A stretch of DNA of 64,000 nt from a virus: the IMG/VR virus record IMGVR_UViG_3300032007_000018, positions 136,445 through 200,444 of that record. The stretch is one strand, 5' to 3'. Each line of letters begins with the position of its first letter. Within the stretch, counting starts at the first letter, position 1. Positions 8,669-11,130 of this stretch are shown piece after piece. The notes beneath the pieces are model-generated. The model searched no databases and was not told the origin of the DNA. It worked only from the letters and a program-made list of their open reading frames with translations. Both the position numbers and the translations under genes were made by a program.

Positions 8669-8718
8669 GCTGGCTGAATCCCAGCCGCAGGTATGGGTTC
8701 GATCCCCATAGCCGGCAG
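8669..8718 (+). ncRNA. tRNA-like minihelix (acceptor plus T-arm, no D/anticodon arms, no CCA)
   Basis: GCTGGCT...ATGGG-TTCGATC-CCCAT-AGCCGGC. Confidence 0.3.
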
Positions 8719-9049
8719 ATTAGATAACGGGTAGCAGCGCCCACAATACTATGAATAGATGATAGTAAGTAAAGAGCTGCGTAGATGTGAGTGGTCCTTG
8801 CGGTCAGCCCTATATTAAACAAATGACCGCGTTAGATGGATGTTCAGGTTATACGTTCTAAGCCGAAACGTAGCCGTGGAATGGCCTTTTGGTTATAGGT
8901 TTGGCCTCGCTCCCGTGAAGGCGAGGGATGAAAACCTCCCGTTAGGTTTTTTGTATCTGTTTATCCTACGACAGTGGAACAAACATACGGTTCAGTGAAG
9001 CCGCTGTATCCAGAAAGAGGGTAGCTGCAGACGCCCTAAGTGCTTTTAT

Positions 9050-9124
9050 GCTTCGGTAGCCCAATTGGTAGGAGGCAACAGATTCAAAACCTGAACAGTG
9101 TGGGTCCGAATCCCACCCGAAGTA
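9050..9124 (+). tRNA. tRNA paralogue of 8377-8451 with aberrant anticodon arm (3-bp stem, 9-nt loop auucaaaac containing UCA)
   Basis: aligns position-for-position with the 8377 tRNA except in the anticodon arm; CCA encoded. Confidence 0.35.
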
Positions 9125-9294
9125 CCAATAATCTAGGTTGTAGGAAACCTTCACCTGCGGCCGCAGGTAAAAAGAAATTTTTTGACTTTATAAAAAAAAT
9201 ATAATATAATATTTATAGAAAAACAAAAGAAAGACACAAACAGCAATTCTTCTTTATATTATGGATATATAAAAAGAACGTGTCTTGTGGAAAT

Positions 9295-9367
9295 GGCTCC
9301 TTAGTCAAGCGGTCAAGACGCCGGCCTTTCACGCCGGAGGCGGTGGGTTCGATTCCCCCAGGAGTCA
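9295..9367 (+). tRNA. tRNA-Glu (TTC)
   Basis: stem CCGGC/GCCGG loop cuUUCac; CCA. Confidence 0.7.
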
Positions 9368-9561
9368 CCAGAGGCTTCTTTCCAATTCAGCCTGTATAGT
9401 AGAATTGAAGTTCGTAGGGATGGATTTTTCCGGTTTCAACTACCACCGGCAGTATAAGCGTGAACCAGATAAGGATTAAGTTGCCCCTGTAAGTAGCGCA
9501 CTGATATGTGGCTTGTCACTAACGAACTAAAATAAAAGCGAAAGTAAAACCGTTTCTAAAT

Positions 9562-9635
9562 GGCCCCTTCCTCTAAATGGTCAAGGAGGCTAGGCTCTCA
9601 ATCTGGCAATGTGGGTTCGAATCCCGCAGGGGTCA
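9562..9635 (+). tRNA. tRNA with anticodon CUC (Glu-like) and wobble-rich anticodon stem
   Basis: acceptor GGCCCCT/AGGGGTC, loop cuCUCaa, T-arm GTGGG-TTCGAAT-CCCGC, CCA. Confidence 0.4.
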
Positions 9636-9724
9636 CCAAGTGTTGCGAGCTCTAAGTCGCACGAAAGTTACTACCGTAAGGCAACCGTCTGTGGGTCTTG
9701 GCGTAAAAGACACTCCTCTATATT

Positions 9725-9793
9725 GCGGAGGTGGAGCAATGGTAGCTCACCGCCCTCATAAGGCGGAGACGATGTTCGAATCATCCGTCCGCA
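9725..9793 (+). tRNA. tRNA-Met (CAT), no encoded CCA
   Basis: stem CCGCC/GGCGG loop cuCAUaa; D-arm GAGC-AATGGTA-GCTC. Confidence 0.5.
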
Positions 9794-9837
9794 AGAGCGA
9801 CAATGGCAACCTCCACGTGGTGTCGCTTGGGTAACGC

Positions 9838-9890
9838 TAACTGCCAAAGTCGAGTTTGTAGGTAGCGTCGTGACTTTAATCCTAAACCTT
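9838..9890 (+). repeat. conserved about 50-nt element downstream of a tRNA (second copy at 15017-15068)
   Basis: GTCGAGTTTGTAGGTAGCGTCGTGACTTTAATCCTAAACCTTCAT versus GTCGAGTTTTGAAGGTATCGTCGCGACTTTAACCCTAAACCTTCAT. Confidence 0.5.
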
Positions 9891-10259
9891 CATCTCCTAT
9901 GAATTTAAGCTCTCCAAGGAGGGATCCTGCTCTTTTAGGTTGACTTGCATTAAAACTACTCATATGTGTCCTTTAAGATAGTCGAGCAGGCCGGGGAGTG
10001 ACACCTCTTCATATAATCCCCTTTCAAAATAAAAAGACTTTTCCATAGCAGGAGTCTTTTAGAAACTTGTGTGTTGTCGTTTAGTCTCCTTTCTTTTGGT
10101 TTTTTGTTTGTGGTTTTCTATGTAATCTTTCTGTTGTTCAACACAAGTGGTGTTTTCTACCTGCTATTTTCTCTTTTTAAACCACCATATGCTGGCGCCC
10201 AAGTCCAGAGGAAGAAGTGCGAGGGAAAAGAGAATTTTTCTGTAAAGGGAGGAATTTAC

Positions 10260-10547
10260 ATGAAATTCTATTCTGAAAAGCTCGATAAGTTGTTTGATAC
10301 TTAGGAGCTGTGTGCGCAAGCAGAGGAAGCACACGAAAAAGCAATCGCTGAGGAAGAAGCAAAAAAGAAAGCCCTTACCGAGGAGAGAGCAACCAGAGCC
10401 AAAGAAGTAGAGGATCTTTACAAAGCCGCAATCGAAGCTAAAAAGGCTTACGATGAAAAGCTGCGCGAGTTCTTAAAAGACTACGGTTCATTCCATGCTA
10501 CTTTTAAGAATGTCGATCCTTTCTTCACCCTTTTTGATTGGTTCTAA
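10260..10547 (+). CDS. hypothetical small protein, one in-frame TAG
   Basis: ATG after AGGGAGGAAT; frame continues through TAG at codon 15 to TAA; Ala/Glu/Lys-rich helix. Confidence 0.3.
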
Positions 10548-10659
10548 TCAAACAAAGGTTTCTTGCTCCTTTTCCTAAAAGGAGCTTTATATATGTCGCT
10601 GTGACCGAGAGGCTGATGGTGGCGCCCTGCTGTGAAAACTCATATTTTTAGATATAGAT

Positions 10660-11064
10660 ATGGATACAAATGTTTTAGGTAAACTTACTGAAGTCAAAGT
10701 AATGGAATATATTATCGCAAAAGGATTTTCAGTTTCTATTCCATTTGGCGACAAAGATAAATATGATCAAATTTGGGATATAAATGGTAATTTATTTAGA
10801 GTTCAAGTAAAAACATCCCATTTATATACTAAAAATACGGGTAAAGCAATAGAATTTAAGACTACTGGAACATCAAATGGAAGAGTAACATCTTATTCTA
10901 AAGACGATATAGATTATTTTGCTACTTTTTGGGAAAATCGTGTGTATATTGTTCCAGTTGAAGAGACTTCGTCTAAAAAGGTATTGCGTTTTGAATCTAC
11001 TCAGAATCAGCCAAATATCTCTTGGGCGAAAGATTACACGGTTGAGGAGGTCTTAAAAATATGA
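10660..11064 (+). CDS. hypothetical small nuclease-like protein
   Basis: 134-aa intact ORF; paralogous N-terminus at 8268. Confidence 0.5.
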   Translation: MDTNVLGKLTEVKVMEYIIAKGFSVSIPFGDKDKYDQIWDINGNLFRVQVKTSHLYTKNTGKAIEFKTTGTSNGRVTSYSKDDIDYFATFWENRVYIVPVEETSSKKVLRFESTQNQPNISWAKDYTVEEVLKI

Positions 11065-11076
11065 GCATTTTGCAGC

Positions 11077-11130
11077 AAGGCGTTGGCTCCGTAAGGAGTC
11101 CGGAGGTTCGAATCCTCCCAGCGACGCCAA
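11077..11130 (+). ncRNA. tRNA-like minihelix (acceptor stem, small hairpin, T-arm GGAGG-TTCGAAT-CCTCC, GCCA 3' end)
   Basis: GGCGTTG...CGACGCC acceptor pairing with a CTCC-GTAA-GGAG hairpin in place of D/anticodon arms. Confidence 0.3.

What the first reader, a model, noticed from the sequence alone, without database searches (positions are those of the whole stretch)
8669..11130. tRNA-like minihelices (acceptor plus T-arm only)
Elements at 8669-8718 and 11077-11130 keep a 7-bp acceptor stem and a canonical T-arm (GGTTCGA(A/T)YCC) but replace the D/anticodon region with one short hairpin. One ends GCCA. A T-arm fragment also occurs at about 14838-14862. Such units are substrates for CCA-adding enzyme, RNase P and Thg1-like enzymes, and they resemble the tRNA-like domain of bacterial YrlA Y RNAs bound by Rsr. 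That is relevant given the TROVE protein encoded here.
Basis: partly seen in the sequence, partly recalled or inferred. Interest (0 to 1): 0.5.

Follow-up and report, generated by a model that had tools for sequence, protein, structure and literature searches.

The report
Intron-split tRNA, odd tRNA, Y-like RNA
The two supposed tRNA "minihelices" are really parts of full tRNA genes, one of them split by a mobile, endonuclease-coding intron that has no room for a self-splicing ribozyme, while the minor "T-arm fragment" is the true Y-RNA-like element in this phage.

Summary
The T-arms are real, but neither main element is a stand-alone minihelix.

- **8669-8718** is the 3' two-thirds of a complete cloverleaf at 8640-8717 (Rfam tRNA 35.1 bits). 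It has a GAA anticodon loop on an abnormal 8-bp anticodon stem.
- **11077-11130** is the 3' exon of a class II tRNA-Ser(GCU). Its 5' exon is 10595-10631. A 445-nt insert sits exactly between nucleotides 36 and 37 and carries a 134-aa I-Ssp6803I-family PD-(D/E)XK homing endonuclease.
  - Near-identical phage pairs with and without the insert exist, including cultured Enterococcus phages EFP01 and EFDG1.
  - 35 distinct junctions in six tRNA species share a covarying helix. It pairs the anticodon with the last three intron bases and places the splice sites 3 bp apart.
  - No group I core is detectable, and only 40 non-coding bases remain. The geometry fits neither bulge-helix-bulge nor RNase III.
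  - Whether and how the insert is spliced is unknown.
- **14838-14862** lies inside a YrlA-like RNA at 14802-14911. It has a terminal stem, then V, T, acceptor-like and D arms, and scores below the Rfam threshold. Relatives lie upstream of a Ro60-fold protein gene.

The parts
8640..8717 (+). Acceptor GCGGGUU/AGCCGGC with a G3xG70 mismatch. D-arm AUGU-AAGAGGGA-GCAU. 8-bp anticodon stem 8666-8673/8681-8688. Loop CUGAAUC (anticodon GAA) at 8674-8680. T-arm 8693-8709. A73.
   Evidence: ARAGORN tRNA-Phe(gaa) 8639-8718. Rfam RF00005 35.1 bits against a threshold of 29, with 12 instead of 6 positions inside the anticodon stem. The minimum-energy fold is a cloverleaf.
10595..10631 (+). 5' exon of tRNA-Ser(GCU): acceptor GTCGCTG, D-arm, anticodon-stem 5' strand GCGCC (10622-10626), then C32 U33 G34 C35 U36.
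   Evidence: ARAGORN with introns allowed. The in-silico spliced product is called tRNA-Ser(gct), 90 nt.
10632..11076 (+). 445-nt intervening sequence inserted between tRNA positions 36 and 37. It has 28 nt of 5' leader, a 405-nt ORF and 12 nt of 3' tail.
   Evidence: Boundaries are fixed by the 7-nt loop CUGCU|AA and by intron-less alleles of relatives.
10660..11064 (+). Intron ORF of 134 aa, a PD-(D/E)XK homing endonuclease of the I-Ssp6803I family.
   Evidence: Pfam PF11645, E=2.8e-25. Profile hit to PDB 2OST, E=6e-11. AlphaFold model (pLDDT 86) has 2OST as best PDB match, TM 0.72. More than 200 homologues.
10628..10645 (+). 5' strand of the splice-site helix: U33, anticodon GCU, intron nt 1-6 (GUGAAA), unpaired A10638, then CUCAUAU.
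   Evidence: Fold. Covariation over 35 distinct junctions: 92.7% paired, 10 of 11 pairs with changes on both sides.
11059..11077 (+). 3' strand of the splice-site helix: AUAUGAG (holds the ORF stop codon), unpaired CA, UUUUGC, the last three intron bases AGC (pair with the anticodon), and A37.
11077..11129 (+). A37 A38, anticodon-stem 3' strand GGCGU, long variable arm GGCUCC-GUAA-GGAGUC, T-arm, acceptor CAGCGAC, G73, encoded CCA.
14802..14911 (+). YrlA-like RNA. Terminal stem 14802-14810/14903-14911. V hairpin 14820-14836. Acceptor-like hairpin 14858-14870. D-arm 14875-14890.
   Evidence: Rfam RF02553 36.4 bits, full length. Minimum-energy fold equals centroid. Own model R1 74.6 bits. Covariation. 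Two compensatory changes in the terminal stem.
24075..25619 (+). Ro60-like protein: helical-repeat N-terminal part plus vWA domain. Candidate partner of the YrlA-like RNA.
   Evidence: Pfam DUF2828 + DUF7788 + VWA_CoxE. AlphaFold model pLDDT 77. The top eight PDB matches are all Ro60/Rsr, including Thermus phage phiLo Ro60 at E=7.6e-6.
51257..52447 (+). ATP-dependent RNA ligase, a candidate sealing enzyme (context only).
   Evidence: Pfam PF09414 RNA_ligase + PF21189 OB domain.
18152..18988 (+). Thg1-like 3'-5' nucleotidyltransferase (context only).
   Evidence: Pfam PF04446, E=3e-24.

Best explanation
The window is the tRNA-array and RNA-repair region of a large TAG-recoded phage. The three items are three different things.

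**(1) 8640-8717: a complete but aberrant tRNA-like gene.** It has a GAA loop on an 8-bp anticodon stem. It is probably a decaying or non-decoding tRNA.

**(2) 10595-11129: one tRNA-Ser(GCU) gene split at position 36|37 by a 445-nt mobile element.**
- The element is almost entirely the coding sequence of an I-Ssp6803I-type homing endonuclease.
- Shown: precise insertion, presence/absence polymorphism, an intact class II tRNA after in-silico splicing, and a conserved covarying helix. In that helix U33 pairs with A37, the anticodon pairs with the last three intron bases, and intron bases 1-7 pair with bases -4 to -10. The two splice sites therefore lie 3 bp apart on opposite strands of a continuous helix.
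- Inferred: the insert is removed from the RNA by proteins, not by a ribozyme. Two cuts would leave the anticodon as a 3-nt 3' overhang. The cuts would be made either by the intron's own PD-(D/E)XK enzyme, on an RNA helix that mimics its DNA target, or by another double-strand RNA nuclease. The break would then be sealed by an anticodon-loop RNA ligase such as the one encoded at 51257-52447.

**(3) 14802-14911: a YrlA-like Y RNA.** It has a terminal stem plus a permuted tRNA-like module. Inferred partner: the Ro60-fold protein at 24075-25619.

The confidence given is for the identifications. The splicing step is rated separately in the section on the most novel reading.
For: Context:
- 33 tRNAs on one strand, two tRNA(CUA) genes, and ORFs with up to 9 in-frame TAG codons that still match Pfam domains.

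Item 1:
-.

Item 2:
- ARAGORN with introns finds the split gene.
- The spliced product is a 90-nt tRNA-Ser(gct) with a perfect acceptor stem, G73 and CCA.
- AGY codons make up 46% of Ser codons in long ORFs, and no other Ser(GCU) gene is in the window.
- ORF family.
- The same arrangement occurs in viral, metagenome and MAG contigs.
- All 40 distinct genes, joined at 36|37, give canonical tRNAs whose class matches the anticodon: Ser GCU 19, Asn 12, Thr 4, Ser ACU 3, Gly 1, Pro 1.
- Helix covariation.
- Intron-less alleles exist. L045 and L057 are 98-99.9% identical to L001 on both flanks but lack exactly 438 nt. Enterococcus phage EFP01 carries a 463-nt insert in a tRNA-Asn that is intact in EFDG1 and about 28 other Schiekvirus phages.
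- No Rfam intron or ribozyme hit inside any insert.
- RNA ligase, RlaP, Thg1-like, phosphoesterase and RNase T genes lie in the window.

Item 3:
-.
Against: - No transcript data exist, so removal of the insert from RNA is not shown. A phage tRNA may be dispensable, so the insert could simply have killed the gene.
- The fold search puts the ORF with DNA nucleases (I-Ssp6803I, Hjc, EcoRV). No tRNA-splicing endonuclease is among the top 50 matches.
- The helix registration was chosen to maximise pairing, and junctions with fewer than 8 of 10 pairs were dropped. The 92.7% figure is therefore somewhat inflated.
- The YrlA-like RNA scores well below Rfam's threshold and lacks the GNCGAAN0-1G Ro-binding motif. 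It lies 9.2 kb from the Ro-like gene.
- The Ro-like protein does not hit Pfam TROVE.
- Item 1 has no homologue among 1.9 Mb of related loci, so nothing is known about its conservation.
Confidence: 0.8

Rival explanations
1. One reading: 8669-8718 and 11077-11130 are free-standing acceptor-plus-T-arm minihelices, acting as Y-RNA-like ligands or enzyme substrates.
For: Both stretches can be drawn with a 7-bp stem that includes one G-U pair, followed by a canonical T-arm. RNA-repair genes are nearby.
Against: - Each stretch is better explained as part of a longer tRNA: a full cloverleaf at 35.1 bits, and a perfect 7/7 acceptor partner 480 nt upstream.
- There is no YrlA or Y RNA hit at either site.
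- The minimum-energy fold of 8669-8718 does not form the proposed stem.
- 40 related loci show the same split-gene layout.
Confidence: 0.03
2. The tRNA-Ser gene is simply dead. The endonuclease gene homed into the anticodon loop and is never removed from the RNA. The terminal helix serves the endonuclease mRNA (stability, release from the polycistronic tRNA precursor, translational control) and not tRNA repair.
For: - Phage tRNAs are accessory.
- The free-standing copy in L005 keeps a 10-bp flanking helix without any tRNA halves. In Kuttervirus PM10 the homologue sits between tRNAs.
- The ORF folds as a DNA nuclease.
- EFP01 is viable while its relatives carry the intact gene.
Against: - The helix includes the anticodon, and its partner bases change with the anticodon (AGC, AAC, ACA, AUA, AGU). 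An mRNA hairpin would not need this.
- All 40 split genes keep perfect cloverleaves. Anticodon stems show compensatory changes even among closely related introns: GCGCC, GUGCC, CCUCC, GAUCC, GUUCC.
- The insertion point never varies.
Confidence: 0.3
3. The insert is a self-splicing intron after all: a very compact or unrecognised ribozyme overlapping the ORF, of group I or a new class.
For: - PF11645 endonucleases are otherwise known from group I introns in cyanobacterial tRNA-fMet (PMC13011429, PMC1995217).
- In most cases the 5' exon ends in U.
Against: - No RF00028 hit or other ribozyme hit inside any insert in 18 loci at E<=1, nor in the window at E<=5.
- Only 40 nt are non-coding, against a minimum of 184 nt for known tRNA group I introns (PMC13011429).
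- None of the 35 junctions ends in the obligatory G.
- The 5' exon ends in C (L031) or G (L039b) in some cases.
- The helix sequence is variable and has no conserved core.
Confidence: 0.07
4. The element at 14802-14911 is a circularly permuted or rearranged tRNA gene, or pseudogene, of the array with no link to the Ro-like protein.
For: - In many relatives the acceptor-like hairpin reads 7 nt + NCCA + loop + 7 nt, as expected for a permuted tRNA.
- All copies lie inside tRNA arrays.
- The Ro-binding motif of bacterial YrlA is not matched (PMC4201824).
Against: - The module is closed by a conserved 7-9-bp terminal stem with compensatory changes, not by an anticodon arm.
- Rfam's YrlA model matches full length in three phages.
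- In several relatives the copy lies 0.7-1.4 kb upstream of the Ro-like gene on the same strand.
Confidence: 0.2

Closest known systems
Group I intron of cyanobacterial tRNA-fMet carrying I-Ssp6803I (Synechocystis PCC 6803)
   Same: - The endonuclease family is the same (PF11645; PDB 2OST by sequence and by fold).
- It is also inserted in a tRNA anticodon loop.
[quoted passage not shown]
   Different: - The known intron is 655 nt for a 150-aa ORF and sits at 33/34 in a self-splicing group I ribozyme (PMC1995217, PMC13011429).
- Here the insert is 437-488 nt for a 133-140-aa ORF, at 36/37.
- There is no detectable ribozyme and no terminal G.
- The targets are tRNA-Ser, Asn, Thr, Gly and Pro of phages.
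Archaeal bulge-helix-bulge tRNA/rRNA introns, some of which carry homing endonuclease genes
   Same: - A ribozyme-less intron in the anticodon loop.
- The anticodon pairs with intron bases.
- The ORF is looped out of a helix formed by the intron ends.
   Different: - The defining 3-nt bulge / 4-bp helix / 3-nt bulge (PMC4090602) is absent. The splice sites lie 3 bp apart in a continuous helix.
- Hosts are bacteria, which lack EndA: Enterococcus for EFP01, and Bacillota bins for relatives.
RNase III-excised intervening sequences of bacterial rRNA, combined with phage T4-type anticodon-loop repair (Pnkp/Rnl1)
   Same: - A long irregular helix of about 22-25 bp closes the insert.
- Phage-encoded RNA ligases and end-healing enzymes are present.
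   Different: - RNase III leaves 2-nt 3' overhangs, but the exon boundaries here require 3 nt.
- rRNA intervening sequences are not religated.
- None of this has been tested.
YrlA Y RNAs of bacteria and phages bound by Ro60/Rsr (Chen et al. 2014, PMC4201824; Rfam RF02553)
   Same: Terminal stem plus a tRNA-like module in the order V, T-arm, acceptor-like hairpin, D-arm. It has a GG in the D-loop and a UUCAAAU T-loop. It is encoded on the same strand as, and upstream of, a Ro60-fold gene.
   Different: - Score of 36 bits against a threshold of 69.
- The GNCGAAN0-1G motif is not matched (GGCACUUG).
- It lies 9.2 kb, not within 4 kb, from the protein gene in this window.
- The protein belongs to DUF2828, not Pfam TROVE.
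- It is embedded in a tRNA array.

Membership tests
tRNA (element 1, 8640-8717) | Reaches the Rfam RF00005 gathering score as a full-length match | tested here: met
   35.1 bits against 29, model positions 1-71. It was missed by the default-filter run.
tRNA (element 1, 8640-8717) | 5-bp anticodon stem carrying a 7-nt loop | tested here: not met
   8-bp stem GUGGCUGG/CCAGCCGC. Rfam places 12 positions where it expects 6. There is also a G3xG70 mismatch in the acceptor stem.
tRNA-Ser (spliced 10595-10631 + 11077-11129) | Class II body with a long variable arm, a Ser anticodon and G73 (discriminator rule from established knowledge of bacterial tRNA-Ser) | tested here: met
   ARAGORN calls tRNA-Ser(gct), 90 nt. 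The minimum-energy fold is a cloverleaf with a 6-bp variable arm. It ends G-CCA.
Group I intron | Catalytic core detectable with RF00028 | tested here: not met
   No hit in the window at E<=5 or in 18 related loci at E<=1. The literature detects the PF11645-bearing tRNA-fMet introns with this same model (PMC13011429). No positive control was run here.
Group I intron | Enough RNA for a core (known tRNA group I introns are 184-894 nt; those with an endonuclease gene exceed 500 nt) | tested here: not met
   445 nt, of which 405 are ORF. Relatives are 437-488 nt (PMC13011429).
Group I intron | 5' exon ends in U and the intron ends in G | tested here: not met
   In the window the exon ends in U but the intron ends in C. 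None of the 35 junctions ends in G. L031 has C36 and L039b has G36.
Bulge-helix-bulge (archaeal-type) intron | 4-bp helix flanked by two 3-nt bulges that hold the splice sites (PMC4090602) | tested here: not met
   The splice sites lie in a continuous 10-bp helix, 3 bp apart, with no bulges.
RNase III-processed intervening sequence | Cuts staggered to leave 2-nt 3' overhangs in a helix of about 20 bp (established knowledge) | tested here: inconclusive
   The helix length fits: 5 + 10 + 7 bp with one mismatch and one 1x2 internal loop. The exon boundaries require a 3-nt stagger. Actual cleavage sites are unknown.
I-Ssp6803I-type homing endonuclease element | PF11645 protein related to PDB 2OST | tested here: met
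   E=2.8e-25. Profile against PDB E=6.4e-11. Foldseek TM 0.72.
I-Ssp6803I-type homing endonuclease element | Presence/absence polymorphism at one precise site in otherwise near-identical genomes | tested here: met
   L001 against L045 and L057. EFP01 against EFDG1 and about 28 other phages.
I-Ssp6803I-type homing endonuclease element | Cleaves the intron-less tRNA gene DNA | not testable with these tools
   Needs enzyme assays.
YrlA (RF02553) | Reaches the Rfam gathering score | tested here: not met
   36.4 bits against 69, though full length with E=3e-5.
YrlA (RF02553) | tRNA-like module in the order T-arm, acceptor-like hairpin, D-arm, closed by a stem | tested here: met
   - Minimum-energy fold equals centroid.
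- Model R1 finds 27 non-artefact relatives.
- 93% of cells are paired against 28-46% when partners are slid.
- All 6 pairs of the acceptor-like hairpin change on both sides.
- Two compensatory changes in the terminal stem.
YrlA (RF02553) | GNCGAAN0-1G Ro-binding motif near the 5' end (PMC4201824) | tested here: not met
   The window reads GGCACUUG. L138 reads GGCACAUG. L038 reads GACACAUU.
YrlA (RF02553) | Within 4 kb of, and on the same strand as, a Ro60 gene (PMC4201824) | tested here: inconclusive
   Same strand, but 9.2 kb away in the window. The distance is 0.7-1.4 kb in L147, L145, L168 and L138.
Ro60/TROVE protein (24075-25619) | Pfam TROVE domain | tested here: not met
   Hits DUF2828 + DUF7788 + VWA_CoxE only. 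No NCBIfam hit. No Ro60 found by sequence in the PDB.
Ro60/TROVE protein (24075-25619) | Ro60 fold: helical-repeat ring plus vWA domain | tested here: met
   The top eight Foldseek PDB matches are all Ro60/Rsr, E 7.6e-6 to 1e-3, about 540-600 aligned columns, TM 0.39-0.52. The model is of moderate quality, pLDDT 77.

The most novel reading that the evidence does not exclude
These inserts would be a third kind of bacterial or phage tRNA intron. They have no ribozyme, consist of little more than a homing-endonuclease gene, and would be removed by proteins.

The intron ends build an RNA helix on the anticodon. This helix reproduces the geometry of the endonuclease's DNA target, with cuts on either side of the anticodon triplet leaving 3-nt 3' overhangs. 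The element's own PD-(D/E)XK enzyme, or a host double-strand RNA nuclease, would excise it. A phage anticodon-loop RNA ligase would then reseal the tRNA.

One point rests on memory only. I recall from Bonocora & Shub 2001 that I-Ssp6803I cuts DNA on both sides of the anticodon with 3-nt 3' extensions. I could not verify this with the tools.
Probability: 0.35. Interest if true: 0.9.

Novelty: new variant of a known kind. Interest (0 to 1): 0.68.

Why it matters
- **For annotation.** Default tRNA finders and Rfam miss these split genes. They were missed, and the tRNA-Asn of Enterococcus phage EFP01 is not annotated in GenBank. Phage tRNA repertoires are therefore undercounted. The window's only tRNA for AGY codons, which make up 46% of its Ser codons, is one of these genes.
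- **For biology, if the insert is spliced.** Bacteria and their phages would have a protein-dependent tRNA splicing route, so far thought to be confined to archaea and eukaryotes. It would also give a concrete role to the RNA ligases and end-healing enzymes that large phages carry.
- **For biology, if it is not spliced.** It would be a clear case of a homing endonuclease family that specialises in disrupting phage tRNA genes. The covarying anticodon-pairing helix would then still need an explanation.
- **Testability.** The system can be tested now in a cultured pair, EFP01 with the insert and EFDG1 without it.
- **YrlA-like RNAs.** Together with a Ro60-fold protein, a vault-MVP-like protein, RlaP, Thg1-like and ligase genes, they extend Ro/Y-RNA biology to a large group of gut and rumen phages. 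The Ro-like protein has relatives on 366 viral contigs.

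Tried and rejected
- **Group I intron.** No Rfam hit, too little non-coding RNA, and no terminal G.
- **Bulge-helix-bulge.** The geometry does not fit (definition from PMC4090602).
- **RNase III as the sole explanation.** Its 2-nt stagger does not give the 7-nt loop.
- **Endonuclease as an EndA-like RNA enzyme.** The fold search returns I-Ssp6803I, Hjc, the SPARDA nuclease domain and EcoRV. No splicing endonuclease is in the top 50.
- **ARAGORN's own splice point** (Gly GCC, Asp GUC, Ala AGC). Rejected because class II bodies must be Ser, and because intact alleles read CUGCU|AA and CUGUU|AA.
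- **An upstream acceptor GUCGGCU (8588-8594)** with a 57-nt insert for element 1. It can be folded but has no support. Rfam and ARAGORN prefer 8640.
- **Structure in the GC-rich spacer 8455-8639.** z-score +0.76, so nothing there.
- **Relatives of element 1 and its flanks.** None in 1.9 Mb of related loci.
- **Relatives of ORF 11148-11774**, tried in order to find an intron-less allele of this very phage. None in viral contigs.
- **GenBank phages by DNA similarity to the window.** Only tRNA-sized matches.
- **Genome collection scan.** Three MAG contigs only and no cyanobacterial control.
- **Literature.** No paper found describing ribozyme-less endonuclease-bearing tRNA introns in phages. The papers that give the I-Ssp6803I cleavage pattern were not held.

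Full report
**Context**

The window carries 33 ARAGORN tRNA genes, all on the + strand between 2.7 and 22 kb. Two of them have a CUA anticodon. Several ORFs become long, and match Pfam domains across their length, only if TAG is read through. One example is the radical-SAM ORF at 15883-17175, which has 8 in-frame TAG codons. This is the tRNA-array region of a large TAG-recoded phage. Identical sequence is found on contigs of 72-200 kb from three independent samples.

The window also encodes a set of RNA-repair genes:

| Coordinates | Product |
|---|---|
| 18152-18988 | Thg1-like enzyme |
| 47115-47966 | RlaP nucleotidyltransferase |
| 51257-52447 | RNA ligase |
| 48902-49777 and 53926-54708 | two metallophosphoesterases |
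| 50407-51240 | RNase T-like exonuclease |
| 41212-43626 | vault-MVP-like protein |
| 59626-60903 | PIN-PhoH protein |

**Checking the observation**

The quoted sequences and their T-arms are present. The T-loop motif is strongly enriched, at 23 copies against 4.2 expected. The proposed 7-bp acceptor stems, however, are alternative pairings of bases that have better partners.

**Element 1 (8669-8718)**

- ARAGORN calls tRNA-Phe(gaa) at 8639-8718.
- With permissive filters, Rfam's tRNA model matches 8640-8717 full length at 35.1 bits, above the threshold of 29.
- The molecule is not canonical. The anticodon stem is 8 bp (GUGGCUGG/CCAGCCGC), and Rfam has to place 12 positions where it expects 6. 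The acceptor stem has a GxG mismatch.
- The minimum-energy fold of 8639-8718 is a cloverleaf.
- I found no homologue in 1.9 Mb of related loci, so I cannot say whether it is conserved. A canonical tRNA-Phe(GAA) exists at 3768-3846.
- My reading is a decaying or non-decoding tRNA copy. This is inference.

**Element 2 (11077-11130)**

*The split gene*
- With introns allowed, ARAGORN joins 10595-10631 to 11077-11129 across 445 nt.
- ARAGORN placed the junction one base early and called the gene Gly(GCC). The body is class II, with a long variable arm GGCUCC-GUAA-GGAGUC and G73. Joining CUGCU|AA gives a canonical 90-nt tRNA-Ser(GCU) with a 7/7 acceptor stem and an encoded CCA.
- No other Ser(GCU) gene is in the window. 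AGY codons are 46% of Ser codons in the long ORFs.

*The insert*
- It is almost all ORF: 10660-11064, 134 aa.
- The ORF matches Pfam PF11645 at E=2.8e-25.
- A family profile hits PDB 2OST (I-Ssp6803I) at E=6e-11.
- The AlphaFold model has 2OST as its best match, TM 0.72.

*Comparative data*
- The protein has more than 200 homologues.
- Loci were fetched from viral contigs, metagenomes, assemblies and MAGs.
- In most of them the ORF again lies inside a tRNA anticodon loop, with insert lengths of 437-488 nt (one of 506, one of 657).
- Forty distinct genes were joined at 36|37. All were called canonical tRNAs, and body class always agreed with the anticodon: Ser(GCU) 19, Asn(GUU) 12, Thr(UGU) 4, Ser(ACU) 3, Gly(UCC) 1, Pro(UGG) 1.

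*Mobility*
- L001 has the same arrangement as the window, with 78% protein identity. It is 98-99.9% identical over 1.5 kb on each side to L045 and L057. Those two lack exactly 438 nt and read CCCTGCTAAGGTGT.
- In cultured phages, Enterococcus phage EFP01 (KY549443.1) carries a 463-nt insert with the ORF EFP01_109, annotated as a hypothetical protein. The insert sits in a tRNA-Asn(GUU) that is not annotated.
- EFDG1 and about 28 other Schiekvirus phages have the identical exons uninterrupted, reading CUGUU|AA.

*What kind of intron is it?*
- Known bacterial tRNA group I introns are 184-894 nt. Those with endonuclease genes exceed 500 nt. The PF11645-bearing ones sit at 33/34 of cyanobacterial tRNA-fMet; the Synechocystis intron is 655 nt with a 150-aa ORF (PMC13011429, PMC1995217).
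- Here only 28 + 12 nt are non-coding.
- Rfam finds no intron or ribozyme inside any insert.
- No junction ends in G, and two 5' exons do not end in U.
- What is conserved is a helix, built as follows, starting from the tRNA body:
  1. the anticodon stem;
  2. a C32xA38 mismatch;
  3. about 10 continuous base pairs, in which U33 pairs with A37, the anticodon pairs with the last three intron bases, and intron bases 1-6/7 pair with the bases upstream of those;
  4. a 1x2 internal loop (A opposite CA);
  5. a 6-9-bp helix that contains the ORF's stop codon.
- Over 35 distinct junctions the intron helix is 92.7% paired, against 36-48% when partners are slid. Ten of its 11 pairs show changes on both sides.
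- The intron's last three bases track the anticodon: AGC or AAC for GCU/GUU, ACA or AUA for UGU, AGU for ACU.
- Caveat: I chose each registration to maximise pairing and dropped junctions with fewer than 8 of 10 pairs. The anchoring on the tRNA body limits this bias but does not remove it.
- The two splice sites are 3 bp apart on opposite strands of this helix. Excision would leave the anticodon as a 3-nt 3' overhang.
- This is not a bulge-helix-bulge motif, defined as a 4-bp helix with two 3-nt bulges (PMC4090602). It is also not the 2-nt stagger of RNase III.
- The hosts are bacteria. The cultured example infects Enterococcus, related contigs are binned with Bacillota, and neighbouring genes include SH3_3, SLH and tmRNA.

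*Most likely mechanism*
- Shown: a mobile endonuclease element inserted at 36|37; intact exons; a covarying helix that involves the anticodon.
- Inferred: the RNA is processed at that helix by proteins and resealed by an RNA ligase. The window has a PF09414 ligase, and L040 has an Rnl1-type ligase and a kinase.
- The nuclease is unknown. I recall, but could not verify, that I-Ssp6803I cuts DNA on both sides of the anticodon leaving 3-nt 3' extensions. If that is right, the RNA helix copies the DNA target's cleavage geometry, and the intron protein is the obvious candidate.
- Against this, its fold neighbours are DNA nucleases. One of them, the SPARDA effector domain, is described as a DNase/RNase (abstract of PMC12205087).
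- The main rival is that the gene is simply dead and the helix serves the endonuclease mRNA. The free-standing copy in L005 keeps a CUGCU...AGCAG helix without tRNA halves.
- My rating: splicing by any route about 0.55-0.6, the specific protein-dependent model 0.35, a dead gene 0.3, a cryptic ribozyme 0.07.

**Element 3 (14838-14862)**

- This T-arm lies in the only YrlA hit of the region. RF02553 matches model positions 1-114 at 14802-14914, with 36.4 bits and E=3e-5, against a threshold of 69.
- The minimum-energy fold equals the centroid. It shows a 9-bp terminal stem, a V hairpin, a T-arm, an acceptor-like hairpin and a D-arm. This is the YrlA architecture of Chen et al. 2014 (PMC4201824).
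- Sub-threshold full-length YrlA hits also occur in L002 (43.3 bits) and L037 (39.5 bits).
- A covariance model of the T/acceptor-like/D module was built from those three sequences. It found two more copies in L038.
- In 80 loci centred on homologues of the Ro-like gene, it gave 39 hits at E<=0.001, all on the gene's strand and upstream of it. Of the 31 inspected (duplicates among the 39 omitted), 27 overlap no predicted tRNA and have a properly paired acceptor-like hairpin. Four are adjacent-tRNA artefacts.
- On the 33 distinct sequences, 93.4% of cells are paired, against 28-46% when slid. All six pairs of the acceptor-like hairpin change on both sides.
- Full-length homologues in L138 and L038 show two compensatory changes in the terminal stem.
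- In L138, L145, L147 and L168 the RNA lies 0.7-1.4 kb upstream of the Ro-like gene. In the window the distance is 9.2 kb.
- The GNCGAAN0-1G motif is not matched.

The protein at 24075-25619 hits DUF2828 + DUF7788/vWA and not TROVE. Its model (pLDDT 77) has Ro60 structures as its eight best PDB matches, led by Thermus phage phiLo Ro60. I therefore file the RNA as working like a YrlA Y RNA and as a probable divergent member of that family. Two formal membership criteria were tested and not met.

**Verdict**

The finding as written is largely a misreading of tRNA parts. Following it up uncovers three things:
- a widespread, previously unannotated family of ribozyme-less, endonuclease-bearing tRNA inserts with a distinctive conserved helix, which can be tested in a cultured phage;
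- a divergent YrlA-like RNA with a Ro-fold protein partner;
- an aberrant tRNA.

Noticed in passing
window 12492-12611 (+): A conserved 120-nt tRNA-like RNA.
- It has a perfect acceptor stem (GGGGAAC/GUUCCCC), D-arm, T-arm, A73 and an encoded CCA.
- About 44 extra nt sit in the anticodon arm. ARAGORN reads them as a 38-nt 'intron'.
- Homologues at 71-83% identity occur in at least 10 related loci. The L033 homologue scores 49.8 bits as tRNA with 55 positions where 11 are expected.
- The insert does not show the endonuclease-intron helix.
   Followed up: partly
window 7575-7647 (+): A second permuted T-arm / hairpin / D-arm module. It is GC-rich and scores 27 bits with model R1 (E=4e-5 for the stretch searched). 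The minimum-energy fold does not reproduce it. It may be a second Y-like RNA.
   Followed up: partly
window 9793-9877 and 15012-15065 (+); L002 1973-2040: - Weak HDV-like ('theta') ribozyme matches lie directly after tRNA-Met (RF00094 26.6 bits, RF02682 24.3 bits).
- A related 54-nt repeat follows tRNA-Pro (87% identity).
- A stronger RF02682 hit (38.4 bits) directly follows the split tRNA-Asn in L002.
- This is consistent with the theta ribozymes described next to tRNAs in recoded gut phages (PMC10879173).
   Followed up: partly
L033 5231-5288, L036 5665-5722, L001 1057-1107: Sub-threshold type-P1 twister ribozyme matches (41-54 bits against a threshold of 67) lie inside tRNA arrays of related phages.
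   Followed up: no
window 1115-2110, 22033-23169, 23270-24043, 25699-26595, 48016-48918, 55714-56508 (+): Six paralogous ORFs with repeated CxCxCG zinc-ribbon units and a C-terminal DUF5889/DUF2726-like (restriction-endonuclease-like) region. They are probably free-standing homing endonucleases scattered among tRNA and repair genes. Several contain in-frame TAG codons.
   Followed up: no
window 41212-43626, 24075-25619, 47115-47966, 51257-52447, 14306-14797: A vault major-protein-like ORF (MVP shoulder + Vault_3) occurs together with the Ro-fold protein, RlaP, an RNA ligase and an ORF starting EIERKWLV (CYTH-like by eye, no Pfam hit). This is an unusually complete RNA-repair gene set for a phage.
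   Followed up: partly
related loci L129 2129-2198, L153 3378-3446, L148 3359-3427, L173 3005-3076, L151 953-1021, L145 8807-8875, L144 2444-2511, L104 571-638: In many YrlA-like relatives the acceptor-like hairpin reads 7 nt + NCCA + short loop + 7 nt. This looks like a circularly permuted tRNA. After RNase P cleavage it could present a CCA end, as reported for M. smegmatis YrlA (PMC4201824).
   Followed up: partly
window 1-22100 (tRNA array): No tRNA-Asp or tRNA-Ala was found among the 33 + 1 tRNA genes. Other interrupted or aberrant genes may remain undetected.
   Followed up: no
L005 1460-1960; L097 (Salmonella phage PM10) 1201-1692: Free-standing copies of the same endonuclease family lie between intact tRNA genes. 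The L005 copy keeps a 10-bp flanking helix, CUGCUUUGUC/GACAAAGCAG, that still contains the CUGCU...AGCAG of a tRNA-Ser(GCU) junction.
   Followed up: partly
L039 12189-12769: A second endonuclease-bearing insert (506 nt) in the same phage contig, this time in tRNA-Pro(UGG). One genome can therefore carry at least two such split tRNAs.
   Followed up: partly
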